64,000 bases of DNA. Origin: Halomonas sp. Lineage in GTDB: Bacteria > Pseudomonadota > Gammaproteobacteria > Pseudomonadales > Halomonadaceae. How positions within the stretch are numbered: position 1 is the stretch's first letter; every line of letters starts with the position of its first letter. Below, in pieces: positions 4,438 to 50,054 of this stretch. The stretch lies in contig REBQ01000240.1 of assembly GCA_007692655.1 (NCBI GenBank), positions 10,727 to 74,726 of the forward strand. Reading direction: 5' to 3'. The notes under the pieces are model-generated. The model saw only the letters and a list, made by a program, of their open reading frames with translations. It was not told where the DNA came from and did no database searches. The position numbers were made by a program, and so were the translations under genes.

Positions 4438-6354
4438 GTGACCCTGTTACGACTTGAACAGCTGCAACTCGCTTACGGCACACATGTACTACTCAACCGC
4501 GCCGACCTAACGGTTGAAAAAGGCGAGCGGCTGGCGCTGGTCGGGCGCAACGGCACCGGCAAGTCCACACTGCTGAAGTTAGTGGCGGGAGATATCCTGC
4601 CAGACGATGGCTCAATCTGGCGCGCACCGGGTCTTAAAATAGGTGTCTTGTCCCAGGAGTTACCTGAGTCATCTGGCCTGACTATTTTTGATATGGTTGC
4701 CCAGGGGTTGCCAGAGGCGGGAGAACTACTCTCTGAGTACGACCATCTCATCAATGATCCAGAGCCTGATATGAATCGTATGGCGACGTTGCAAACGCGC
4801 CTGGAAGCCATTGATGGCTGGTCTTACCACCAGCGTATCGACACGGTATTGACCCGCTTAGGCTTACCTCCCGCGGCTGAGATGAGCTCACTGTCTGGCG
4901 GTTGGCGTCGTCGTGTCGCGCTGGCTCGTGCATTGGTGGCTGAGCCGGATTTGCTGCTTCTCGATGAGCCCACCAACCATTTGGACTTAGACACCATTGC
5001 CTGGTTGGAAGAGCAGCTGCTGGCGTTCAACGGTGCGGTGCTGGTGATTACCCATGACCGGGCGTTTCTTTCCAAGCTGGCAACCAATATTCTTGAGTTG
5101 GATCGCGGCCAGTTGGGACGCTACCCAGGCAAGTACGTTGAGTATCAGGCCCGCAAACAGCATGAGCTTGAAGTGGAAGCCCGAGAGCACGCGGAGTTTG
5201 ATAAAAAGTTAGCCCAAGAAGAAGCCTGGATTCGTCAAGGCGTCAAAGCTCGGCGTACCCGCAATGAAGGCCGGGTTCGGGCGCTGGAAGCGATGCGCAA
5301 CGAGCGCAGCCAGCGTCGTGAACGCCAGGGTAATGCCAACTTGACGGTGGATCGTGGCGAGCGCACCGGCAAACGCGTTGTAGAGCTGCAAGGCGTCACC
5401 CAGCGGTTTGGCGACGAGGTCATCTTGCGTGATATCAACCTTGAAGTGCTACGCGGTGACCGGATAGGCTTCCTTGGTCGCAACGGGGCGGGCAAGACAA
5501 CCCTGCTGAAAATCCTGCTGGGTGAGTTAGAACCTAGTGAAGGCAAAGTACAAATGGGCACTAACTTAAAAGTGGCCTATTTCGATCAGCTTCGGGCCGG
5601 GCTTGAACTTGATAAGACCGTCTACGATAACGTTGCTCAGGGCAGTGACCGCGTTAGTGTTGGCGGCAAAGATCGTCACGTGATGAGCTACCTGCAAGAT
5701 TTCCTGTTCACCCCCGAGCGAGTGCGCCAGCCGGTTAAAGCGCTCTCCGGTGGTGAGTCCAACCGGTTGCTGTTAGCCAAGTTGTTTACCCAGCCGGCTA
5801 ACGTGCTAGTGCTCGATGAGCCAACTAACGACCTCGACATGGAAACTCTGGAGCTGTTGGAAGAGTTACTGCTCGATTTCGATGGAACATTGCTGCTGGT
5901 TTCCCATGATCGAACCTTTATGGATAACGTCGTTACCAGCATGCTCGCGTTTGAAGGCGAGGGTGTTGTGCGTGAATACGTGGGTGGATATACCGATTGG
6001 ATTCGCCAAGGCGGCAAGCTACCGCCAGCTCCCTGGGAAGGGGCGGCGCGTCAGCGTACTGAACCGACCTCGGAAGCACCCAAAAAAGTAGTTGAAGCGC
6101 CGGCGGCACCCGCCAAGAAAAGTGTCAAGCTCTCCTACAACTTGCAGCGTGAGTTAGATATTTTACCTGCTGAAATTGAGCGTCTTGAAAGCGATGTCGA
6201 GTCGCTGGAAAGTGAGATGGCGGATCCCGCTTTTTATCAGCAGGGTGCGGATACCGTTGCGGAAAAGCTGCAACTGCTTGAAAAAACGCAGCAGGCGTTG
6301 GAGGTTGCGATGGAGCGCTGGATGGAGCTGGAAGCCATGGCCGCTGGCGAATAG
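4438..6354 (+). CDS. uup: ABC-F family ATPase Uup
   Basis: Two ABC cassettes (GRNGTGKST/LSGGW/LLDEPTNHLD and GRNGAGKTT/LSGGE/VLDEPTNDLD) plus a C-terminal coiled coil (KLSYNLQREL). Confidence 0.93.
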   Translation: MTLLRLEQLQLAYGTHVLLNRADLTVEKGERLALVGRNGTGKSTLLKLVAGDILPDDGSIWRAPGLKIGVLSQELPESSGLTIFDMVAQGLPEAGELLSEYDHLINDPEPDMNRMATLQTRLEAIDGWSYHQRIDTVLTRLGLPPAAEMSSLSGGWRRRVALARALVAEPDLLLLDEPTNHLDLDTIAWLEEQLLAFNGAVLVITHDRAFLSKLATNILELDRGQLGRYPGKYVEYQARKQHELEVEAREHAEFDKKLAQEEAWIRQGVKARRTRNEGRVRALEAMRNERSQRRERQGNANLTVDRGERTGKRVVELQGVTQRFGDEVILRDINLEVLRGDRIGFLGRNGAGKTTLLKILLGELEPSEGKVQMGTNLKVAYFDQLRAGLELDKTVYDNVAQGSDRVSVGGKDRHVMSYLQDFLFTPERVRQPVKALSGGESNRLLLAKLFTQPANVLVLDEPTNDLDMETLELLEELLLDFDGTLLLVSHDRTFMDNVVTSMLAFEGEGVVREYVGGYTDWIRQGGKLPPAPWEGAARQRTEPTSEAPKKVVEAPAAPAKKSVKLSYNLQRELDILPAEIERLESDVESLESEMADPAFYQQGADTVAEKLQLLEKTQQALEVAMERWMELEAMAAGE

Positions 6355-6364
6355 GGCGCACTAT

Positions 6365-6391
6365 AAAAGGCGCCGCGTTGGCGCCTTTTTT
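6365..6391. terminator. Bidirectional intrinsic terminator between uup and the usp gene
   Basis: AAAAGGCGCC-GCGTT-GGCGCCTTTTTT. Confidence 0.85.
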
Positions 6392-6476
6392 GTTAGCACT
6401 AGGCTTGTTTACACTATGTTTGTTAATGCTGTGTTTATTAGTGCTGTGTTTATTAGTGCTGTGTTTGTTAGTGCTT
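6387..6476. repeat. Degenerate 15-bp tandem repeat, about 6 copies
   Basis: TTTTTGTTAGCACTA / GGCTTGTTTACACTA / TGTTTGTTAATGCTG / TGTTTATTAGTGCTG x2 / TGTTTGTTAGTGCTT. Confidence 0.85.
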
Positions 6477-6488
6477 TGGAGCAATAGC

Positions 6489-6941
6489 TCACTCGTCGCT
6501 TTTCTCGCCTTTCTTGCCAACGCGCACGGCTAATACATCGCACTGGGCGCCATGGAGAACCCCGGTAGATGTTGAGCCGAGCAGTAATGCAAAGCCATGG
6601 CGTCCGTGGGAGCCCACGACAATTAAGTCCACGTCATGCTCTTCGGCAAAACGGTGGATTTCAGTATCGGGCATGCCCACCACCACGTATTGGTCGGCTG
6701 GTGGAATATGCGGGGAGGCAATCTCGGCGAGGCGCTTCTTGGCATGATCATCCAGCTGATCTTGAATACTGGTCAGATCCATGGGGATATCCCCCCCGTA
6801 GGCAAACCCTAACGGTTCAAGGGTGTGCATAATGGAGATTTTGGCCCCATTGTTGCGTTCAGCAATCAAAACAGCGCGTTCGAGAATTTTGTGAGAGTCT
6901 TTGGTTAAGTCAACGGCAACTAATAGGTGGCGATAGCTCAT
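6489..6941 (-). CDS. Universal stress protein (UspA family)
   Basis: 150 aa: MSYRHLLVAVDL...DLIVVGSHGRHGFALLLGSTSTGVLH. Confidence 0.92.
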   Translation of the reverse strand: MSYRHLLVAVDLTKDSHKILERAVLIAERNNGAKISIMHTLEPLGFAYGGDIPMDLTSIQDQLDDHAKKRLAEIASPHIPPADQYVVVGMPDTEIHRFAEEHDVDLIVVGSHGRHGFALLLGSTSTGVLHGAQCDVLAVRVGKKGEKSDE

Positions 6942-7103
6942 GGCTTATCTCCTTAGCGGTGGGCGACAAAGTACTACTTTGTACAATAACCCTAATTTAG
7001 ATTGAGTGCCGTGTTTTAACAACGGGTTAAGCCTTAACAACGACCTGCGTCATGGTTTATAGAATAGCGTATCCAGCGCGGTATAGGTTGAAGGAATGTA
7101 AAG

Positions 7104-7646
7104 ATGGATTGGTTGATTATTGTCTTTATTCTGCTGTTTTTGATTGCGCCGTTGAAGTGGTTAAAGCCTAACCCGCGTCAAAAACGTCAGCAAGCACTTC
7201 GCAATCAGGTTAGCAAACAGGGCGTTAACATCAAAATGGAGAAGCCGCCGCTGCATCATTTTAAGGGCACTATGCCTGCTTATCGTTGGCGTTACCCCCA
7301 TGATCAGCCAGGACCGGATTTTCTACTGGTGAGGGATAGCCATGCCAGCGAAGCGTTGGAACCTTATTACGCAGGCTGGCGTTGGCGCATAGCCCCCTTG
7401 CGGCCGCTGCCTGAAACTGCTGTTGAGCCTTTAAAAGCATTGCTGGAGCGCCTTCCTCAAGACGCATTGGTGGTTCAGTCGAGCCCGCATACCCTGACGT
7501 TATGGTGGTGGGAGTCACAAACGGCGGAGCGTTTTTCCACCTACTTGCCAGAGTTCCAGCAATTGCATCAATCACTGCAGGGCTGCGCTGACCAGCCAAG
7601 CAAAAAACCGCTAGCTAATCCCGGTCAGCCCAGTCGACGTTACTAG
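7104..7646 (+). CDS. Hypothetical protein with an N-terminal membrane anchor
   Basis: 180 aa with hydrophobic N-terminus MDWLIIVFILLFLIAPLKWL; RBS AAGGA. Confidence 0.7.
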   Translation: MDWLIIVFILLFLIAPLKWLKPNPRQKRQQALRNQVSKQGVNIKMEKPPLHHFKGTMPAYRWRYPHDQPGPDFLLVRDSHASEALEPYYAGWRWRIAPLRPLPETAVEPLKALLERLPQDALVVQSSPHTLTLWWWESQTAERFSTYLPEFQQLHQSLQGCADQPSKKPLANPGQPSRRY

Positions 7647-7657
7647 GAGCTAGGTCA

Positions 7658-8110
7658 TCAAGAGACAGGGCCGTCTTGATCCCGGGCCTGTATCGCTAAA
7701 CCATTTGACTCGATGAGACCCAGCCACTCGTCCAGTTGATCCAAGTTCTCTTTTGTTAAGCCCGCAAACATCTCTTTACGCGCCTGCTGAGCGACGCTGT
7801 CAATTTTCTCGAGCAGGGGCATAGCGGCCTGGGTGAGATAAATTCGCTTGCTGCGACGGTCATTGTCACAGGCGCGGCGTTCAATCAGCCCTTGTTCTTC
7901 AAGTTGCCCAAGTGTACGTACCAAGGAGGGCGCCTCAACGCCAATCGCCCGGGCGAGGTCGCACTGCGGGTGCCCTTCACCCAAACGCCATAGATGATAA
8001 AGCGTCACCCAGCGTGTTTGTGTCAAACCTAACGGCGCAAGGCGACGATCCAGGATAGAGCGCCACAAGTGTGGCAAGCGTACAATGCGAAAACCAATCG
8101 ATGAAGCCAT
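7658..8110 (-). CDS. slyA: MarR-family regulator (SlyA-like)
   Basis: LGLTQTRWVTLYHL...LARAIGVEAPSLVRTLGQLEEQGLIER...DRRSKRIYLT matches SlyA. ATG at 8110 chosen over TTG at 8116. Confidence 0.85.
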   Translation of the reverse strand: MASSIGFRIVRLPHLWRSILDRRLAPLGLTQTRWVTLYHLWRLGEGHPQCDLARAIGVEAPSLVRTLGQLEEQGLIERRACDNDRRSKRIYLTQAAMPLLEKIDSVAQQARKEMFAGLTKENLDQLDEWLGLIESNGLAIQARDQDGPVS

Positions 8111-42946: not shown

Positions 42947-43372
42947 ATGCCCTGGCTTAAACTGCTTCACATTGCCGCGCTAGTGATTTGGTGTGGTTCG
43001 CTGCTTTATCTTCCCGCTTTGCTCAGTCAGGCGCTCCAGCTGCGCAAAGACTCGGGTTTTGCCCAGGGCTCACCGCCCATGCCGCGTTTTTTTTATAACT
43101 CTATTGCCACCCCCGCCGCGTTAACAGCGATTGCATCGGGAACATTACTGTTCTTGCTTCACGGTTTATTGGGCGGATGGTTGATTTTTAAACTGGTGGC
43201 CGTCGTCGCCATGGTAGCTGCTCACGGAAGCTTTGGCTGGCTGATTTTGCGCTTGGAACTTGGCCATTACCGTTGGGTGAGGCCCGCCAACTGGCTAGCC
43301 CTATTCGTGGCGTTGGCGGGGATTATTGCTGTATTAGGATTCGTGCTGGCTAAGCCATTGGATTGGAGTTAG
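42947..43372 (+). CDS. CopD/HemJ-like (UPF0093) membrane protein
   Basis: LKLLHIAALVIW.GSLLYLP...WLIFKLVAVVAMVAAH; four TM helices. Confidence 0.75.
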   Translation: MPWLKLLHIAALVIWCGSLLYLPALLSQALQLRKDSGFAQGSPPMPRFFYNSIATPAALTAIASGTLLFLLHGLLGGWLIFKLVAVVAMVAAHGSFGWLILRLELGHYRWVRPANWLALFVALAGIIAVLGFVLAKPLDWS

Positions 43373-43383
43373 TGGTGAAGGAC

Positions 43384-43845
43384 TCAATCGTCGATATCGA
43401 CACCCACAGCGTGCTCGTACACCAGTTGACCACCCAGCCAGCCGGCCAGAGCAATCAAAGCGCCGGTGACCAGCGAGACGGTCAAGCCCCAAGGCATGAT
43501 GGCCGTGGGATCATTCACTCGCAGCAGCCAGTTAAACGATGCCAACGAGAGCATCACTACGGCGACAATAGCATGGCTCCAGCCGGTAATAAGACGGCGA
43601 ATACGTTTCACGGTTACCAAGTCAATAATGCCAGCAACGCTTGCGATCCAGCCACCAAAAGCACCGACACCTGCGAGCCACAGCCCAGTGCGAGACCAGA
43701 ACGGGTCGCTGGTATACCAAAAAGCCAAGTCGCTCGCCACCAGCGCCATCAAGGCCGCAACCGGAAAGTGAATCATCACGGGATGCAGTGGATGGCCAGC
43801 GAGAGACGCGCGGCTTTTAATCGAGCGTTGGAGAGATTTTGCCAT
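43384..43845 (-). CDS. DUF2231 family membrane protein
   Basis: GHPLHPVMIHFP...HAIVAV...GWLGGQLVYEHAVGV; RBS AGGAAG. Confidence 0.85.
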   Translation of the reverse strand: MAKSLQRSIKSRASLAGHPLHPVMIHFPVAALMALVASDLAFWYTSDPFWSRTGLWLAGVGAFGGWIASVAGIIDLVTVKRIRRLITGWSHAIVAVVMLSLASFNWLLRVNDPTAIMPWGLTVSLVTGALIALAGWLGGQLVYEHAVGVDIDD

Positions 43846-43881
43846 GGTCACTTCCTGTGGGCAGAAAAAGGGATTCAAGGA

Positions 43882-44952
43882 ATGAGGGAACGATACAAAC
43901 GACACGCTGCCCCGTTGAGTATTCAACGCTTAACCCGCCAGCGGGTCAACCAACTTGCCGCCCCATTAATGGTTATCGCGACGCTTTTTTTGACTGGATG
44001 CGCAGGCGATAAGTCCATTTTAGACCCTGCGGGCCAAGCTGCTCGTGACGTCGTATTAATTTGGTGGATTATGCTCGCTTTCGGCACGGTCGTGCTGGTG
44101 GTAGTGGTTGCGCTATGGCTATATGCATTCAAACGCAAACACGTTACGCGAACGGCGGTAGAGGAGCGGCGTATCGCGCGGCGCTGGATTGTGGGTGGCG
44201 GTATTATGCTGCCTGTATTAAGCATTACGGCGCTACTGGCGTTCGGCGTGCCTGCTGGGCAACGGATGTTGCCATTGCCGCTTAGTGAGCCGCCGGAAGT
44301 GATTGAAGTGATAGGCCACCAGTGGTGGTGGGAAGTGCGCTATCCAGGCGCTGAAGGCGGTGAAGTTGTCACCTCCAACCAATTGATTATGCCTGCTGGT
44401 GAACCGGTGGATTTTCATGTGACCGGTGCTGATGTTATTCACGCGTTCTGGGTGCCACGTTTGGGTGGCAAGATCGATATGATCCCTGGACGTGTGAACA
44501 GAATTCGCCTGGAAGCGGACGAACCTGGGGTGTTTGGCGCCCAATGCGCCGAGTTTTGCGGGGTGGGGCATGCCCATATGCATCTCTACGTAGAGGCCTT
44601 GGAGCGGGACGAATATGACGCTTGGCTGGCTGAGCGACAAACGGATCAGTTAGCGTCGTTAGCGGTTAATGACCAACAGCACGAACCTGCCAGGGAGGCA
44701 TTTATGACCCATTGTGCAAGCTGCCACCGGGTAGCAGGGCTTTCTGCCGGTGAGGTGGGCCCGGATCTTTCCGATCTTGGCAGTCGCACCAGCTTAGGTG
44801 CTGGTGTCATGCCGATGGAAGAGGGAGCCATTAATGATTGGCTGCACAATCATCAAACGCTGAAACCCAGCAACCTGATGCCCGTTCACGACGATATTGA
44901 TTCTGCCACCTTGGAGTCCCTGGGTGCTTGGCTGGAGACCTTGAGCCCATGA
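43882..44952 (+). CDS. coxB: Cytochrome c oxidase subunit II with fused cytochrome c (caa3 type), lipoprotein
   Basis: Lipobox LTGC; CuA ligands VIHAFW and CAEFCGVGHAHM; heme c motif CASCH. Alternative start at 43969. Confidence 0.9.
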   Translation: MRERYKRHAAPLSIQRLTRQRVNQLAAPLMVIATLFLTGCAGDKSILDPAGQAARDVVLIWWIMLAFGTVVLVVVVALWLYAFKRKHVTRTAVEERRIARRWIVGGGIMLPVLSITALLAFGVPAGQRMLPLPLSEPPEVIEVIGHQWWWEVRYPGAEGGEVVTSNQLIMPAGEPVDFHVTGADVIHAFWVPRLGGKIDMIPGRVNRIRLEADEPGVFGAQCAEFCGVGHAHMHLYVEALERDEYDAWLAERQTDQLASLAVNDQQHEPAREAFMTHCASCHRVAGLSAGEVGPDLSDLGSRTSLGAGVMPMEEGAINDWLHNHQTLKPSNLMPVHDDIDSATLESLGAWLETLSP

Positions 44953-47492
44953 CGACGATTAATCGCCAAGCCACTCCTCAGGAACCTCAGAACCCGAGAG
45001 ACCCGCAGGGGTTGCACGAAGATCTCCATGAAATATGGGGCAATCCCCGGGGGCTGAAAGCCCTCACTATTGTTAACCACACCACCCTTGGCCTTCGCTT
45101 TATGGTGACCGGGATGGTGTTTTTCTTGATCGGTGGAATTCTCGCCATGCTGGTACGCACCCAGCTGGCATTCCCCGACCAAGACTTCATGTCGCCAGAC
45201 ATTTATAACCAAGTCACCACCATGCACGGCACGGTGATGATGTTCCTATTTGCTATCCCGATGCTCGAAGGGTTAGCCATTTATATGATTCCCAAGATGA
45301 TCGGTGCCCGTGATCTGGTTTGCCCCCGGCTGACCTCGTTGGGGTACTGGTGCTACCTGTTTGGCGGGATTATTTTAATGTCGAGTTTGGTGCTGGAAAT
45401 GGCACCTAACAGCGGCTGGTTTATGTACACGCCGCTAAGCAGTAGCGAGTATGCGCCTGGTCTTGGCTCTGATTTCTGGCTGTTAGGGATTACCTTCGTT
45501 GAAATATCGGCGCTCTCTGCCGGGGTAGAGCTGGTGGTGTCGATACTGCGCACCCGTACCCAGGGCATGGCGCTGCATAAAATGCCGCTGTTTGCCTGGT
45601 ACATCCTGGCCATGGCGCTGATGATCGTGGTCGGTTTTCCACCGTTGATTCTGGGCAGTATCTTGCTTGAGCTTGAGCGTGCCGTGGGCATGCCATTTTT
45701 TGAAATTGCTGGCGGCGGCGATCCGATTCTTTGGCAACATCTATTCTGGTTGTTCGGTCACCCTGAGGTGTACATTATTTTTTTACCGGCAGCAGGCATT
45801 GTGTCAACGTTGATACCAGTATTCGCTGGCCGTCCGATTGTTGGCTATGGCTGGGTAGTGTTTGCCATTATCGTTACTGGCTTTATAAGTTTTGGCTTAT
45901 GGGTTCACCACATGTTTACGGTGGGGATTCCGCAACTGGCCCAAGCGTTCTTTTCGGCGGCCAGCATGTTGGTCGCAGTGCCTACGGCCATTCAGGTGTT
46001 TGTTTGGCTGGCCACGCTATGGCTGGGTAAGCCCAAAATGAAGCTGCCGATGCTGTGGATCATGGGGTTCTTAATTATCTTTGTGTGTGGCGGTTTGACC
46101 GGCGTCATGCTGGCGCTGGTGCCGTTTAACTGGCAGGTGCACGACACCCACTTTGTCGTCGCACACATGCACTATGTATTGGTGGGGGGGATGTTCTTCC
46201 CACTGATCGCCGGGCTGTATTACTGGCTGCCGCTATTTTCAGGCCGCATGCCCTCTGAGACGATCGGCAAATGGGGCTTCTGGCTCACCTTTCTGGGTTT
46301 TAATGGCACCTTCTTAATCATGCACTGGACGGGGCTGCTGGGTATGCCACGGCGTATCTACACCTACGACACAGGCATGGGCTGGGATATTTTTAACCTG
46401 CTCTCTTCCGTGAGTGGTTTTATTATGTCGGCAGGTATTGCCATGGTGCTGCTGGATATTGCACTGCACTTCCGCTTTGGTAAGCCCGCCAAACAAAACC
46501 CGTGGAATGCTGACACCCTCGAATGGGCCAACTTCATGCCACCGAGTGCCTATAACTTTGTCAGTCTCCCAAAAATTGAGACTCGCCATCCGTTATGGGA
46601 TGACCCGGATCTGCCGCGCACGATGGCCGAGGGCAAACATAGCCTGTCGGTAGCTAACCATGGACGACGGGAGATGTGGGGCACCGACCCCATAACGGGT
46701 AAAGTGCGCGAAATTATTCACCTGCCTGGCAACTCCTGGCTACCCCTATTTGCGGCTATGGCGCTGGCGGTGGTGTGTATTAGCCTGTTAGTACGTGTTT
46801 ACCCTTTGGCGGGTGTTTTCGTGATCGTGGCAGCGGTATTGCTGTTGCGCTGGTCATGGGAAAACGGCGCGCATCCGAAAGCTGCGCCTGACGCTGAGGT
46901 GGCGCCTGGGGATCCTCCGCTACACTCACGCACCATGGATGGCCCTGGTCTATGGGCCATGGCGATAGCGCTGCTCGCTAACGGGTCGTTTTTCTTATGT
47001 TACCTCTTTGGCTGGTTTTATCTGTGGACGGTCTCGCCTGAGTGGCGGATGCCTGAGACCTCTCCGCTTTCACTGATCGGCCTTGTGTTGGCAGGGCTTT
47101 TAGTGACCTTTGGTGCGGGCGTGTTGGAAAAGTGTGTGCGCGGTTTGCGCCAAAAACGTGATGCTGGGCTAGCGATTAGCATGTACAGCATTAGTGCCCT
47201 GGGCTTTGTGCAGGTGGCCATAACACTGTGGGTACTGCTAAGCGCAAATCTTGAGGTAACCGAGACCGCCCACGATGCGATCATGATGGTTGGCTTGGTG
47301 TATGCTCTGATACACGGTGGGTTAGGCGCCATCCTTACGCTGTTACAGGGTCTGCGAGTGGGCTATGGCTATGTAGGTGCCCACGCGCCTTTCGAACCAG
47401 CGGTGGTTGCCCAGCTGTGGCGCTATAACGTGGTGACATTCTGGGTGCTGGTCGGTGCACTTGCCGTGCTGCCTCGCGTCATAGGGAGTTAA
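44949..47492 (+). CDS. ctaD: Cytochrome c oxidase subunit I fused to a subunit III-like C-terminus
   Basis: TMHG, GHPEVY, WVHHM, HDTHFVVAHMHY, PRR; about 200 extra residues forming TM helices; ATGA overlap with coxB. Confidence 0.92.
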   Translation: MTTINRQATPQEPQNPRDPQGLHEDLHEIWGNPRGLKALTIVNHTTLGLRFMVTGMVFFLIGGILAMLVRTQLAFPDQDFMSPDIYNQVTTMHGTVMMFLFAIPMLEGLAIYMIPKMIGARDLVCPRLTSLGYWCYLFGGIILMSSLVLEMAPNSGWFMYTPLSSSEYAPGLGSDFWLLGITFVEISALSAGVELVVSILRTRTQGMALHKMPLFAWYILAMALMIVVGFPPLILGSILLELERAVGMPFFEIAGGGDPILWQHLFWLFGHPEVYIIFLPAAGIVSTLIPVFAGRPIVGYGWVVFAIIVTGFISFGLWVHHMFTVGIPQLAQAFFSAASMLVAVPTAIQVFVWLATLWLGKPKMKLPMLWIMGFLIIFVCGGLTGVMLALVPFNWQVHDTHFVVAHMHYVLVGGMFFPLIAGLYYWLPLFSGRMPSETIGKWGFWLTFLGFNGTFLIMHWTGLLGMPRRIYTYDTGMGWDIFNLLSSVSGFIMSAGIAMVLLDIALHFRFGKPAKQNPWNADTLEWANFMPPSAYNFVSLPKIETRHPLWDDPDLPRTMAEGKHSLSVANHGRREMWGTDPITGKVREIIHLPGNSWLPLFAAMALAVVCISLLVRVYPLAGVFVIVAAVLLLRWSWENGAHPKAAPDAEVAPGDPPLHSRTMDGPGLWAMAIALLANGSFFLCYLFGWFYLWTVSPEWRMPETSPLSLIGLVLAGLLVTFGAGVLEKCVRGLRQKRDAGLAISMYSISALGFVQVAITLWVLLSANLEVTETAHDAIMMVGLVYALIHGGLGAILTLLQGLRVGYGYVGAHAPFEPAVVAQLWRYNVVTFWVLVGALAVLPRVIGS

Positions 47493-47496
47493 GCTC

Positions 47497-47853
47497 ATGA
47501 CTTCTAACATCGAACGCTTGCACTTAACCCATCCGTTGCACTTTGTGATTGGCTTAACGCTTTGGTGCATTTGGTTTGTGGCGGTTTATGGGGGGCATGC
47601 GGTGGCCTGCGCGGTAGCACCACCTGCTCCCGAACAGGGTGTGTTTACGCTGGTTAATGCGATGCTGCTGATGGTTAGTCTCGCGGCGACGGTGCTACTG
47701 GCTGTACTAACGCTAGGCTGTTGCCGAGAGGCCAAGCGACACGAAGGGCGTCTTCGCTTTAATGCTGCAGTGTCTGCAGGACTCTACCTGTTTTCAACCC
47801 TTGGCGTGGTCTTTACCGCGTTACCTATCTTGGGCATTCCGCCTTGTCTGTAA
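47497..47853 (+). CDS. Small membrane protein of the oxidase operon
   Basis: 118 aa, three TM helices, WFVAVYGGHAVAC. Confidence 0.7.
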   Translation: MTSNIERLHLTHPLHFVIGLTLWCIWFVAVYGGHAVACAVAPPAPEQGVFTLVNAMLLMVSLAATVLLAVLTLGCCREAKRHEGRLRFNAAVSAGLYLFSTLGVVFTALPILGIPPCL

Positions 47854-50054
47854 GCGATACGCTTAACGCTCAGGATGAACAGCTATATACCCTCCATGGC
47901 ATGTGGTGCACCAGCTGCGCCCTCGCCGTGGAAGGGTCTCTCAAACGGCTGGAGGGGGTACGCGAGGTTAGCGTTCATTATCCAAGCGCTACCCTCTGTA
48001 TCAGCGGCACTCCGTCCGCCACCCAACTGACAAACCTTGCCCAGAACATTAAGCGCCTGGGTTATCGCCTTACTGAACTGGAGCCGGTGGCGGACGCCCA
48101 CGCGCGACTGGAAGAAGAGAGCCGTTATTTAACCCTGAGACTGATGGTTGGCTCGCTGTTCGGTATGTGGACAATGCTCGCTTCAATACTGATTTATGCA
48201 GGAGCGCTACCCAGTGAGCAGGTCGAGCTGGTAGTGGCCTGGGTATCGGGGGCGTTTTCCCTTCCCGTTGTACTCTTCGCAGGCGTGCCTTTTTATCGAG
48301 CCGGATGGCGCACACTGCTGGCCAAGCGGCCGGGGATGGATGTGCTGGTTAGTTTGGGTGTGTTGGGCGCAGTGTTCGTCTCGGTTGGGCTGTTATGGCG
48401 GGGCTCGGCTGAGGTGTATTTCGATACGGCGGTCATGCTTATCGTCCTGCTGCTAGTCGGCCGGCTGGTGGAAACCCTGTGTCGCCACCGTGGGCTAAAA
48501 GCATTGGATACGTTGTCACTGCCTGAGGTGAACATAACGGTTTGGCAAGATGACAACCGGGCAACAATTCCCGTGGGTGAGGTGGCCGTAGGCATGCGCA
48601 TTGAGCTTACACCAGGTGAGATAGTGGCACTGGATGGCACTCTTGTAGCTCCCGCCTGGATAGATACCGCATCGCTGACCGGTGAAAGTCTGCCGCGCTA
48701 CTTTAACGCAGGGCAGGCTGTATACGCCGGTTGCCGCTACCTTGGTGCAACGCCGCTGGTCATGCAGGTAAGTGCCGGAGTAGGTCAACGGCGGCTAGAC
48801 CGACTGTGTGAGGAGATGCGTCGTTATCAGGCGAAAAAGGGCGAGCTGCAGAAACTCGCTGACCGCTTTGCCGCTTGGCTCAGCCCCGCCGCACTGGTAC
48901 TGGCGCTGCTAACGCTACCGATGGCGCTATTGTTGGGGGTGGGCTGGGAAGATGCCTTTGTACGGGCACTTTCCGTATTAGTGGTGGCATGCCCCTGTGC
49001 AGTAGGGCTGGCGGTGCCACTGGCAAGCCTGGCGGGTAGCGGTCAGGCCATGCAGCAAGGAGTGGCGCTGCGCGATCCATCCGCCCTTGAAAGCTTGGCG
49101 AGGCTTCGCTCCGTCGCACTGGATAAAACAGGCACGCTTACCAACGGCCGCCATTCGGTGCTGCACTGGCAGGGGCGGGATGGCGTTGAACAAAGCGACT
49201 TACAGCGAAAGCTAAGCGCTGCGGTGGCGGGAAGCGAACATCCGTTGGCTCAAGCCTTGGTAGGCTGGTCGCGCAGTCAACGCAGTTCAGGCCATCATCC
49301 TAATGAGCATGTCCTCGAAGTCAACGAAGCGCCGGGTGAAGGGCGTCGCGTTCAATTAAGCGGCGGTGAGTGGCTGTCAGTGGGCAGCGAGGCTTGGCTT
49401 GCTCGTCAAGGGGTAGCGCTACCTGAGGCCATGGACGATGCTGTTTTCGCTTTTACTTCTCAGGTGATGCTAGCAGACGAAGCTGGCTGGCTAGCAACAT
49501 TCTACTTGGCTGACCAACCGGTAAGTGATGCCGCGGTAAGCGTCAATAACTTGATAAATTCAGGCTATGTGGTGGCGATGGTCAGCGGTGATCGACAGGG
49601 CGCGGTAAGTTGGTTGGGCGAACAGGTAGGGCTCAGTCGTGAAGCTTGCTATGCCCAGCGATCCCCGGAAGCCAAAGCGCGACTACTGCAGGGGCTGCCA
49701 TCGCCAACGCTCTATGTGGGCGATGGCTTAAACGATACCTTGAGCTTGGCTGCGGCAGATGTCGGTGTCGCGCCGTTAAGTGCCAGCGAAGCCGCTAGGC
49801 AAGGGGCTGCCGCGCAGCTCTTGACACCGGGAATTGGGGGAGTAGTGACACTGATCAGCGTTGCCAAACGCACCCGGCGCATTATGGTTCAAAACCTGTT
49901 TTTTTCAGCCCTCTACAACACCTTGGCGTTAGGGCTGGTGGTTATCATGGCAATACCACCGCTGATCGCCGTTCTCGCCATGGCGGCTAGTTCGTTGACG
50001 GTGACTCTTAACGCCGCAAGGCTGGCTTGGGCAGAACTGGATGACAATGGTTAA
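47844..50054 (+). CDS. P1B-type Cu(I) ATPase (CcoI/FixI-like)
   Basis: HMA motif GMWCTSC, TGES, CPC, DKTGT, SEHP, GDGLND, YN and MAASS; TTG start overlaps the upstream stop. Confidence 0.9.
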   Translation: MSVSDTLNAQDEQLYTLHGMWCTSCALAVEGSLKRLEGVREVSVHYPSATLCISGTPSATQLTNLAQNIKRLGYRLTELEPVADAHARLEEESRYLTLRLMVGSLFGMWTMLASILIYAGALPSEQVELVVAWVSGAFSLPVVLFAGVPFYRAGWRTLLAKRPGMDVLVSLGVLGAVFVSVGLLWRGSAEVYFDTAVMLIVLLLVGRLVETLCRHRGLKALDTLSLPEVNITVWQDDNRATIPVGEVAVGMRIELTPGEIVALDGTLVAPAWIDTASLTGESLPRYFNAGQAVYAGCRYLGATPLVMQVSAGVGQRRLDRLCEEMRRYQAKKGELQKLADRFAAWLSPAALVLALLTLPMALLLGVGWEDAFVRALSVLVVACPCAVGLAVPLASLAGSGQAMQQGVALRDPSALESLARLRSVALDKTGTLTNGRHSVLHWQGRDGVEQSDLQRKLSAAVAGSEHPLAQALVGWSRSQRSSGHHPNEHVLEVNEAPGEGRRVQLSGGEWLSVGSEAWLARQGVALPEAMDDAVFAFTSQVMLADEAGWLATFYLADQPVSDAAVSVNNLINSGYVVAMVSGDRQGAVSWLGEQVGLSREACYAQRSPEAKARLLQGLPSPTLYVGDGLNDTLSLAAADVGVAPLSASEAARQGAAAQLLTPGIGGVVTLISVAKRTRRIMVQNLFFSALYNTLALGLVVIMAIPPLIAVLAMAASSLTVTLNAARLAWAELDDNG

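What the first reader, a model, noticed from the sequence alone, without database searches (positions are those of the whole stretch)
44949..47492. A-type heme-copper oxidase with an intact O2 site but both proton channels rewritten
Seen, by manual alignment to Rhodobacter sphaeroides subunit I: all metal ligands, the cross-linked Tyr (GHPEVY), E286, D132 and the RR pair are present. However, K-channel K362 is Gln (AVPTAIQVF, codon 45993-45995). D-channel N139 is Thr (PRLTS, 45333-45335), N121 is Ile, Y33 is Phe, N207 is Glu (45528-45530), and a new Glu appears at the G198 position (45501-45503). Subunit II also lacks the K-channel entry Glu (WIVGGG instead of LEIxWT). Established: K362 mutants lose activity, and N139T or N207D uncouple pumping. 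Inference: this subfamily uses a different proton (or possibly Na+) route, or is a non-pumping oxidase, which is relevant to halo/alkaliphily. The subfamily itself is probably widespread.
Basis: partly seen in the sequence, partly recalled or inferred. Interest (0 to 1): 0.72.

Follow-up and report, generated by a model that had tools for sequence, protein, structure and literature searches.

The report
Cytochrome oxidase with rebuilt proton channels
This Halomonas gene encodes an intact oxygen-reducing cytochrome c oxidase from a large, widespread and biochemically unstudied bacterial lineage that has lost the textbook lysine proton channel and has three buried glutamates in the other channel, so it probably handles protons differently from every oxidase studied so far.

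Summary
Formal alignment to Paracoccus CoxI (numbering verified) shows all six His ligands, Tyr288, E286, D132 and R481/R482 kept. Subunit II lacks the K-channel entry Glu.

This is not a Halomonas oddity. E117/E198/E207/Q362 is present in all 33 clade members compared from seven phyla and in 240 close cluster representatives. A tree built without these columns separates all K362-less enzymes from all K-type enzymes (SH-aLRT 99). All 29 readable K-type partners have the subunit II Glu, and none of the K-less ones does.

The protein is a 19-helix subunit I+III fusion shaped like Thermus caa3 (TM 0.82/0.89). It is co-transcribed with a CuA/heme c subunit II, a lineage-specific small membrane protein and a copper ATPase. 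It is an accessory oxidase: the genome also has canonical aa3 and bo3, and only 13 of 81 Halomonadaceae carry it.

Most likely it is a true O2 reductase fed through one carboxylate-lined D-type channel, with reduced or no proton pumping. The link to salt or alkali and the Na+ idea are not supported. I found no biochemical study.

The parts
42947..43372 (+). UPF0093 (HemJ-like) 4-TM membrane protein, first gene of the cluster
   Evidence: PF03653 at 54.8 bits. TIGR00701 HemJ gives only 43.9 bits against a cutoff of 138, so it is not HemJ itself. UPF0093 genes lie next to the oxidase in 8 related loci.
43882..44952 (+). Subunit II with a C-terminal cytochrome c domain (caa3-type IIc). Probable lipoprotein. 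The mechanical ORF starts at 43363, but the likely start is the ATG at 43882.
   Evidence: TIGR02866 CoxB 181 bits (cutoff 147.7), PF00116 and PF00034. The CuA motif H..CAEFCGVGHAHM is complete. Heme c site CASCH and lipobox LTGC are present.
44179..44202 (+). Subunit II TM2 start, RRWIVGGG, at the site where canonical enzymes carry the K-channel entry Glu (Rs II-E101 / Pd II-E78)
   Evidence: At this alignment column, 29 of 29 readable K-type partners have Glu. None of the 26 readable EEQ partners, 9 W-type partners or 6 other Q-type partners has it.
44949..47492 (+). Subunit I fused to a divergent 5-TM subunit III (847 aa, 19 TM helices). The ATG overlaps the coxII stop (ATGA).
   Evidence: AF2 model pLDDT 84, pTM 0.89. 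Best fold match is Thermus caa3 I/III, 2YEV_A, TM 0.82/0.89 over 819 columns.
45267..45269 (+). E107: new Glu in helix II, one turn above the N121 position (Rs 117 / Pd G109)
   Evidence: Glu in 28/30 clade members. K-type relatives have Ala/Val/Gly here.
45279..45281 (+). I111, at the N121 position of the D channel
   Evidence: I/V/M in 31/31 clade members; Asn in 32/32 K-type.
45312..45314 (+). D122 = D132, the D-channel entrance Asp, retained
   Evidence: D 25, E 3, N 4 in the clade.
45333..45335 (+). T129, at the N139 position
   Evidence: S/N/T/G in the clade; Asn in 32/32 K-type.
45501..45503 (+). E185: new invariant Glu in helix IV at the G198 position
   Evidence: Glu in 33/33 clade members; Gly in 31/32 K-type.
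45528..45530 (+). E194: invariant Glu in helix IV replacing N207
   Evidence: Glu in 33/33 clade members; Asn in 32/32 K-type.
45759..45773 (+). HPEVY: CuB ligand H271, gating Glu E273 (= E286) and cross-link Tyr Y275 (= Y288)
45993..45995 (+). Q349, replacing the K-channel Lys (K362)
   Evidence: Gln in 33/33 clade members and in 240/240 close cluster representatives; Lys in 32/32 K-type.
46944..47483 (+). C-terminal 5-TM subunit-III-like domain (residues about 666-845)
   Evidence: hhalign of the clade's C-terminal alignment against a COX3/CyoC alignment: 98.4% probability, E 5e-15, 175 columns. Single-sequence searches see nothing.
47497..47853 (+). 118-aa 3-TM protein, a lineage-specific fourth gene with two conserved Cys
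   Evidence: No Pfam or NCBIfam hit. Homologues lie directly downstream of coxI(-III) in nearly all K362-less loci and in none of the K-type loci.
47844..50054 (+). P1B-type copper ATPase (HMA CxxC, CPC), overlapping the preceding ORF. Probably supplies Cu to the oxidase.
   Evidence: TIGR01525 389 bits, above cutoff. PF00122, PF00702, PF00403. The query found no homologue in any of the 80 fetched loci, none of them Halomonadaceae.

Best explanation
The gene encodes the catalytic subunit (I fused to III) of an accessory caa3-type cytochrome c:O2 oxidoreductase. The enzyme belongs to an old, widespread lineage of A-family heme-copper oxidases that lost the canonical K pathway once. The Lys became Gln, and the entry Glu of subunit II disappeared.

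Within that lineage, this clade also rebuilt the D pathway. The entrance Asp (D122) and the gating Glu (E273) are kept. The Asn/Ser/Tyr lining is replaced by hydrophobic or small residues plus three invariant buried glutamates (E194, E107, E185).

Inferred mechanism:
1. Electrons enter through heme c and CuA of subunit II and pass to heme a and then to heme a3-CuB-Tyr, as in any caa3 oxidase.
2. Protons for water formation enter mainly or only through the carboxylate-lined D-type channel: D122 -> E194 -> E107 -> E185 -> E273. This makes it a one-input-channel enzyme, the mirror image of the B and C families.
3. Extra carboxylates at these very positions uncouple the pump in model enzymes. The enzyme therefore probably still builds membrane potential by charge separation but pumps fewer protons or none.

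Shown: the identity, the intact active site, the substitutions, their invariance, the single origin, and the operon.
Inferred: the proton route and the pumping stoichiometry.
For: - Identity and intact site.
- Substitutions confirmed by three independent alignments.
- Invariance of E198/E207/Q362 (33/33) and E117 (28/30) across seven phyla at 36-67% identity, and in 240/240 close cluster representatives.
- With the trait columns removed, all 45 K362-less rows form one side of a branch (SH-aLRT 99), and the fused core clade has support 100.
- The subunit II Glu is present in 29/29 K-type partners and in none of the K-less partners.
- The K-pathway hydroxyls lose their invariance in the clade (S299 -> A/T in 9/33; T359 -> S/A/M in 16/33, against 32/32 conserved in K-type), as expected for a disused path.
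- Helix boundaries of the AF2 model put E194 about 7 residues, E107 about 11 and E185 about 16 from the cytoplasmic helix ends, between D122 and E273. These lie in helices II and IV, which wall the D channel.
- Whole-chain fold equals Thermus caa3 I/III. COX3-like C-terminus.
- N131D/N139D and N199D/N207D abolish pumping while O2 reduction continues: PMC7196763.
- Accessory status: the genome also has a canonical aa3 operon (C74) and cyoABCD (C199) with all canonical channel residues, and the distribution in the family is patchy.
Against: - No coordinates of the model were available, so the side-chain orientation of the three Glu is not shown. On an ideal helix E185 and E194 lie about 180 degrees apart.
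- Gln349 is invariant, which suggests it still has a role, for instance holding water in a rebuilt K-type path next to the Gly-rich TM2 of subunit II.
- Mutant phenotypes in a canonical background need not carry over to a co-adapted natural enzyme. The D132N/N139D double mutant pumps again.
- No expression data exist: no RNA runs hold this sequence.
- No member of the clade has been characterised in the searchable literature.
- K-loss and subunit II Glu-loss coincide on a single branch, so their link rests on one evolutionary event.
Confidence: 0.5

Rival explanations
1. The enzyme is a fully coupled proton pump with two working but rebuilt channels. The glutamate-lined D channel carries pumped protons. 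A wide, water-filled K-type cleft delivers chemical protons without a protonatable Lys, as the Lys-less K-analogue does in B-family oxidases. That cleft would be formed by Gln349, Thr346, Ser286, Tyr275 and the Gly-rich TM2 of subunit II.
For: - Gln349 is invariant (33/33, 240/240), which argues for a retained function.
- The GG(G)xxxP motif in subunit II TM2 is conserved where canonical enzymes have bulky WT.
- D122 and E273 are retained.
- Uncoupling in model enzymes can be reversed by second-site changes.
Against: - S299 and T359 are no longer invariant; Ala or Met occurs in several members.
- No replacement acidic residue is conserved at the channel mouth.
- As I recall, not checked here, K362Q and K362M are inactive in canonical enzymes. 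PMC7196763 says only that the K pathway is essential for catalysis.
Confidence: 0.27
2. The three buried glutamates plus Gln form a cation path, so the enzyme is a Na+-translocating or Na+-dependent oxidase that is useful in saline or alkaline habitats.
For: - The host is a Halomonas/Vreelandella, and near-identical sequence occurs in a soda-lake metagenome.
- Clusters of buried carboxylates are typical of cation sites (general knowledge).
Against: - The identical signature is found in Bradyrhizobium, Bosea, Agrobacterium, Mesorhizobium, Limnobacter, Acidobacteriota, Gemmatimonadota and Planctomycetota.
- Only 13/81 Halomonadaceae carry it.
- The proton-gating Glu and the entrance Asp are retained.
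- No Na+-site motif was identified.
Confidence: 0.04
3. The enzyme is not primarily an oxygen reductase. It could be an NO reductase, a peroxidase or a sensor-type derivative of an A-type oxidase.
For: Other heme-copper lineages with altered channels turned out to be NO reductases (PMC11214002). Some nearby representatives have lost metal ligands.
Against: - The cross-link Tyr, all three CuB His and both heme His are invariant in the clade. NO reductases of the superfamily lack the Tyr (PMC3084760).
- CuA and heme c are intact in subunit II.
- The gene is not next to any denitrification gene.
Confidence: 0.05
4. The gene is a decaying, non-functional paralogue whose channel residues have drifted.
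For: The gene is accessory and patchy in the family, and one congener carries a broken copy.
Against: - The ORF is intact and translationally coupled to its neighbours.
- The replaced positions are invariant, not drifting, across phyla at about 40% identity.
- The operon has a conserved architecture.
Confidence: 0.02

Closest known systems
Thermus thermophilus caa3 oxidase (PDB 2YEV; subunit I/III fusion plus subunit IIc)
   Same: 19-helix subunit I+III fusion (Foldseek TM 0.82/0.89 over 819 columns, 31% identity). Subunit II carries CuA and one C-terminal heme c.
   Different: 2YEV is recorded as an A2-type enzyme with a canonical K channel (PMC8239418 Table S1). The window enzyme has the A1 HPEVY motif, Gln for the Lys, no subunit II Glu and three extra Glu in the D-channel helices.
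Canonical A1-type aa3 oxidases (Paracoccus denitrificans 1AR1, Rhodobacter sphaeroides 1M56) and their uncoupled mutants N131D/N139D and N199D/N207D
   Same: All metal ligands, the HPEVY motif, the D132 and E286 equivalents and the R481/R482 pair. A carboxylate at the N207 position, as in the uncoupled mutant.
   Different: Six of the eight defining D-channel residues and the K-channel Lys are replaced. The changes are natural, invariant and co-adapted, not single mutations.
'A1 type, subtype a' COX operon with COX1-3 fusion and Caa3_CtaG (Degli Esposti 2014, 2019, 2021; PMC4013037, PMC6431628, PMC8239418)
   Same: Probably the same phylogenomic group: proteobacterial COX1-3 fusions of about 841 aa, COX2 fused to cytochrome c, and Caa3_CtaG next to the oxidase in 12 related loci. 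The 841-aa Bradyrhizobium members carry the signature.
   Different: Table S1 of PMC8239418 lists 'subtype a COX13 fused' with K-channel 'yes', and the Gln/Glu signature is not described there. This genome has no Caa3_CtaG at all and has a Cu-ATPase in the operon instead.
K-channel-less A-family oxidases already catalogued (Acidithiobacillus rus-operon aa3, Aeropyrum, Thermoplasmatales COX13, CyoCAB subtype; PMC8239418 Table S3)
   Same: Loss of Lys354 (Pd) and often of the subunit II Glu within the A family.
   Different: Those clades have hydrophobic residues (I/V/L/M/F/A) at the Lys position. They are not reported with an invariant Gln or with the triple-Glu D channel, and they are separate lineages.
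B-family (ba3) and C-family (cbb3) oxidases
   Same: By inference, a single proton input channel and probably a lower pumping stoichiometry.
   Different: Those families keep a K-analogue and lack the D channel. This enzyme does the opposite. Sequence similarity to ba3 is remote (E about 1e-14).

Membership tests
Heme-copper oxidase superfamily, A family (O2 reductase) | Six conserved His ligands of heme a, heme a3 and CuB | tested here: met
   H93, H271, H320, H321, H406 and H408 align with Pd H94, H276, H325, H326, H411 and H413. Invariant in the clade.
Heme-copper oxidase superfamily, A family (O2 reductase) | Cross-linked Tyr in helix VI (Tyr-I, HPEVY) | tested here: met
   GHPEVY with Y275. 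The covalent cross-link itself cannot be tested with these tools.
Heme-copper oxidase superfamily, A family (O2 reductase) | Curated sequence model | tested here: met
   TIGR02891 CtaD_CoxA 702.9 bits against a cutoff of 670.75; PF00115 499.9 bits.
A1 type as defined by Pereira/Sousa (PMC3084760) | D-channel residue set D124, N199, N113, N131, Y35, S134, S193, E278 (Pd numbering) | tested here: not met
   Only D124 and E278 are kept. The other six are E, I, T, F, G and A (definition).
A1 type as defined by Pereira/Sousa (PMC3084760) | K-channel residue set K354, T351, S291, Y280 (Pd numbering) | tested here: not met
   K354 is Gln. T351, S291 and Y280 are present in this protein but variable in the clade.
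A1 type as defined by Pereira/Sousa (PMC3084760) | Glu in the helix VI motif (A1) rather than the Tyr-Ser motif of A2 | tested here: met
   HPEVY, E273.
caa3-type oxidase (Thermus/Bacillus architecture) | Subunit II with CuA and a C-terminal mono-heme cytochrome c | tested here: met
   Complete CuA motif, CASCH, PF00116 + PF00034.
caa3-type oxidase (Thermus/Bacillus architecture) | Subunit I fused to subunit III | tested here: met
   2YEV_A TM 0.82/0.89; hhalign to COX3 98.4%.
caa3-type oxidase (Thermus/Bacillus architecture) | Caa3_CtaG assembly factor | tested here: not met
   No PF09678 match in the whole genome, which is 90.6% complete. Present beside the oxidase in 12 related loci.
caa3-type oxidase (Thermus/Bacillus architecture) | Heme A in both heme sites | not testable with these tools
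   ctaA and ctaB exist in the genome's aa3 operon on C74, so heme A is available. Occupancy is unknown.
Proton-pumping oxidase (1 H+/e- pumped) | Measured vectorial proton translocation | not testable with these tools
   Needs proteoliposome or whole-cell H+/e- measurement.
Na+-translocating oxidase | Na+ dependence or Na+ transport; restriction to Na+-based bioenergetics | tested here: not met
   Only the distribution criterion was tested. The clade is common in non-halophilic soil and freshwater taxa and patchy in Halomonadaceae. Transport itself is not testable here.

The most novel reading that the evidence does not exclude
The invariant E117/E198/E207/Q362 set, together with the Gly-rich subunit II helix and the lineage-specific small Cys-bearing subunit, could be a distinct coupling design inside the A family. 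One version is a pump that gates protons through a ladder of carboxylates without any K pathway. A less likely version is an enzyme that moves another cation. Either would be a natural, co-adapted alternative to the mechanism worked out on Rhodobacter, Paracoccus and bovine enzymes.
Probability: 0.2. Interest if true: 0.85.

Novelty: new variant of a known kind. Interest (0 to 1): 0.62.

Why it matters
Textbooks and recent reviews state that A-family oxidases have two conserved proton channels (for example PMC11214002). Decades of mutagenesis identify K362, N139 and N207 as positions whose change kills or uncouples the enzyme.

Here nature has fixed exactly such changes across many phyla for a very long time: no Lys, no subunit II Glu, and carboxylates in the Asn gate. 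The O2 site remains intact.

Measuring turnover and H+/e- in one member would show whether an A-type oxidase can work, and perhaps pump, with one rebuilt channel. It would also test current models of how the pKa of E286 controls pumping.

There is a practical side as well. Genome-based energy budgets assume 2 H+/e- for every 'cytochrome c oxidase subunit I', which may be wrong for this common accessory enzyme of soil and marine bacteria.

Tried and rejected
- RNA evidence for expression: only five metagenomic DNA runs hold related sequence and no RNA runs do.
- Regulatory clues: no FNR/ANR-type box and no convincing sigma-70 promoter upstream of the cluster.
- Single-sequence detection of subunit III in the C-terminus failed (Pfam; PDB phmmer at E<=1). 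Only profile-profile comparison found it.
- Literature search for a characterised member: the Pseudomonas pseudoalcaligenes KF707 'coxMNOP' oxidase looked promising, but it has an unfused 66-kDa subunit I and two COX3 genes, so it is a different subtype. Searches for Bradyrhizobium locus tags found nothing.
- Halophily or alkaliphily adaptation: rejected on distribution.
- Pseudogene or drift: rejected on invariance.
- Measuring distances between the three Glu and E273 in the AF2 model was not possible, because the tool returns no coordinates. Only helix boundaries could be used.
- A greedy ORF call on both strands of the high-GC loci gave spurious antisense ORFs. I replaced it with same-strand neighbours.


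Full report
**What is there.** The ORF 44949-47492(+) translates to an intact 847-aa protein.
- It passes NCBI's curated model for cytochrome c oxidase subunit I (TIGR02891, 702.9 bits, cutoff 670.75) and Pfam COX1.
- Its best solved relatives by sequence are actinobacterial CtaD and Bacillus QoxB. Thermus caa3 subunit I/III aligns over residues 45-841.
- The window lies in a Halomonas/Vreelandella genome.
- That genome also carries a complete canonical aa3 operon (contig C74: coxB, coxA, cox11, coxC, surf1, ctaA, ctaB) and cyoABCD (C199).
- The gene under study is therefore a third, accessory heme-copper oxidase.

**Check of the observation.** I rebuilt the Paracoccus denitrificans subunit I sequence from the HMMER alignment of the genome's own CoxA to 1AR1_A. 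Its numbering reproduces 20 published residues. Rhodobacter numbering is Pd+8 in the core. MAFFT alignments with Pd, the genome's own CoxA and CyoB, close homologues, 150 representatives at 50% identity and 80 genomic loci all agree.
- Kept: the six His ligands, W280, Y288 (Y275), E286 (E273), D132 (D122), T359, S299 and R481/R482.
- Changed: K362Q (Q349), N139T (T129), N121I (I111), N207E (E194), G198E (E185), Y33F, S142G, S201A and S197V.
- Every codon coordinate in the finding is exact.
- By the published definition of the A1 channels (PMC3084760), only 2 of the 8 D-channel residues survive, and the Lys of the K channel is gone.
This is a conserved Glu in helix II (E107, Pd G109 / Rs 117), one turn above the N121 position.

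**It is a lineage, not an oddity.** Among the 80 loci fetched from species genomes, 32 share the signature. With the window that makes 33 sequences.
- G198E, N207E and K362Q are 33/33, and E117 is 28/30.
- N121 is always I/V/M.
- E286 is E in 31 and D in 2.
- All metal ligands and Tyr288 are 33/33.
- The 32 K-type relatives in the same set have the canonical residue in 31-32 of 32 at each of these positions.
- All 240 cluster representatives found with the window protein and with a Bosea member also carry E/E/E/Q. These include 841-aa Bradyrhizobium proteins.
- The hosts span Gamma-, Alpha- and Betaproteobacteria, Gemmatimonadota, Planctomycetota, Acidobacteriota, Chloroflexota, Rokubacteria and Actinomycetota.

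**Phylogeny.** I built an IQ-TREE tree with the six trait columns removed.
- All 45 K362-less sequences fall on one side of a branch (SH-aLRT 99).
- All sequences with Glu at 198 form a clade (98).
- The fused I+III core that holds the window forms a clade with support 100.
- Inside the K-less lineage there are two further groups. One has a canonical D channel plus Gln362. The other is an 'HPWVY' group in which E286 is Trp and K362 is Ala.

**Subunit II.** The partner gene most likely starts at the ATG at 43882.
- It has a lipobox, a complete CuA site and one CxxCH.
- In the alignment column of the K-channel entry Glu, 29 of 29 readable K-type partners have Glu. None of the partners of K-less enzymes has it.
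- The clade instead shows (R)RWxxGG(G)xxxP.
- The K pathway was therefore taken apart on both subunits. Because this happened on a single branch, the correlation rests on one evolutionary event.
- Within the clade, S299 (A/T in 9/33) and T359 (S/A/M in 16/33) have lost the strict invariance they show in K-type enzymes. Gln362 never varies.

**Architecture.** An AlphaFold2 model built on 36 sequences has pLDDT 84 and pTM 0.89 and contains 19 TM helices.
- Its best structural match is Thermus caa3 subunit I/III (2YEV_A, TM 0.82/0.89, 819 columns).
- The last five helices match a COX3/CyoC profile at 98.4% probability. Single-sequence searches do not see this.
- E107 lies in helix II, T129 in helix III, and E185 and E194 in helix IV. 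These are the helices that wall the D channel in solved oxidases (established knowledge).
- Counting from the cytoplasmic helix ends, E194, E107 and E185 sit about 7, 11 and 16 residues deep. They are spaced between the entrance D122 and the gating E273.
- That spacing is the basis of the 'carboxylate ladder' inference. Side-chain orientation could not be checked because no coordinates are returned.

**Operon and context.**
- coxII and coxI-III overlap by ATGA.
- A 118-aa 3-TM ORF starts 5 nt after the coxI-III stop.
- A P1B copper ATPase overlaps that ORF.
- A UPF0093 (HemJ-like) gene lies upstream.
- In related loci the recurrent neighbours are cytochrome c (13), Caa3_CtaG (12) and UPF0093 (8).
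- This genome has no Caa3_CtaG anywhere.
- The ATPase query found no homologue in any of the 80 fetched loci, none of which is from Halomonadaceae.
- The small ORF has no Pfam or NCBIfam family. Iterated HMM searches nevertheless find a homologue directly downstream of coxI(-III) in nearly all K-less loci and in none of the K-type loci. It has two conserved Cys.
- Within Halomonadaceae only 13 of 81 genomes (5 of 25 genera) have the oxidase, and one congener has a broken copy.

**Interpretation.** The enzyme is almost certainly a real cytochrome c:O2 oxidoreductase.
- The O2-chemistry residues, CuA and heme c are all conserved.
- NO reductases of the superfamily lack the cross-link Tyr (PMC3084760).

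How it handles protons is inferred. With the Lys and the subunit II Glu gone and the K-path hydroxyls relaxed, the simplest reading is that protons enter through the retained D132...E286 axis, now lined by three glutamates. In Paracoccus, Rhodobacter and yeast enzymes, a carboxylate at N139/N131 or N207/N199 abolishes pumping while O2 reduction continues. The consensus explanation is a shifted pK within the channel (PMC7196763). By analogy this clade may be naturally decoupled: still electrogenic, but with roughly half the yield.

The main rival reading is a co-adapted, fully pumping enzyme with a water-filled K-type cleft held by the invariant Gln and the Gly-rich helix of subunit II. I put the single-channel, reduced-pumping reading at about 0.5 and this rival at about 0.27.

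The Na+ and halophily ideas fail on distribution. The same signature is found in Bradyrhizobium, Bosea, Agrobacterium, Mesorhizobium, Limnobacter, Acidobacteriota and others.

**Comparison with the literature.** Degli Esposti and co-workers defined a 'COX operon type a / A1 subtype a' with COX1-3 fusion, COX2-cytochrome c and Caa3_CtaG (PMC4013037, PMC6431628).
- This is very probably the same group.
- Their 2021 survey tabulates K-channel variants across the A family and records several K-less clades (Acidithiobacillus rus operon, CyoCAB subtype, archaeal COX13).
- That survey nevertheless lists 'subtype a COX13 fused, Proteobacteria' as K-channel 'yes' (PMC8239418 Tables S1 and S3).
- I found no description of the Gln/triple-Glu signature and no biochemical work on a member.
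- An earlier follow-up in this scan, on another genome, reached the same reading. I re-derived it independently here.

**Verdict.** The enzyme is a new variant of a known kind: a widespread, uncharacterised A-family lineage with a dismantled K pathway and a glutamate-lined D pathway. It is well suited to a direct experimental test of proton-pumping models.

Noticed in passing
window 47497-47853 (+); homologues e.g. L001:8439-8870, L073:8531-8887, L024:2781-3176, L039:8555-8989: A 110-135-aa 3-TM protein with no Pfam or NCBIfam family follows coxI(-III) in nearly all K362-less loci (Glu-type, Trp-type and other Gln-type) and in none of the 32 K-type loci. Conserved features are a Trp in TM1, a Tyr, a Cys after TM1, an Arg after TM2 and a C-terminal Cys. 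It may be a lineage-specific fourth subunit or a copper or assembly factor.
   Followed up: partly
L026, L027, L035, L036, L039, L040, L048, L056, L064 (coxI at about 6001-7900 of each locus): A sister clade of A-type oxidases in Paraburkholderia, Caballeronia, Rhodanobacter, Gemmatimonadaceae and Alphaproteobacteria has HPWVY (E286 replaced by Trp) and Ala/Ser/Gly at K362. It keeps all D-channel asparagines and all metal ligands. Its subunit II also lacks the K-channel Glu. How it delivers protons is unexplained.
   Followed up: no
G012:C1:2867861-2870043 (-), same genus as the window: The orthologous coxI-III gene is broken: one TGA and one TAG inside, and the match is split in two. The oxidase is therefore dispensable in at least one congener.
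   Followed up: no
window 43363-43881 and 43372-43882: The mechanical coxII ORF is over-extended by about 173 codons. The likely start is the ATG at 43882, with an AAGGA upstream and the lipobox LTGC. This leaves an untranslated gap of about 510 nt after the UPF0093 gene, with no recognisable promoter or FNR box.
   Followed up: partly
representative proteins P0149, P0154, P0156, P0190, P0226, P0242, P0252: Several 50%-cluster representatives branching inside or near the clade have lost CuB and/or heme His ligands and the Tyr. They look like degenerate or neofunctionalised paralogues of fused I+III oxidases.
   Followed up: no
window 47844-50054 (+): A P1B copper ATPase (HMA CxxC, CPC) is translationally overlapped with the oxidase cluster, while the genome has no Caa3_CtaG. 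In the non-Halomonadaceae relatives fetched, CtaG is common next to the oxidase and no ATPase homologue was found. This suggests a swap of copper-delivery partners.
   Followed up: partly
window 42947-43372 (+): The UPF0093 protein scores far below the HemJ equivalog cutoff (43.9 against 138 bits), but it recurs next to this oxidase type in at least 8 proteobacterial loci. It may be a heme- or copper-handling accessory rather than a protoporphyrinogen oxidase.
   Followed up: no
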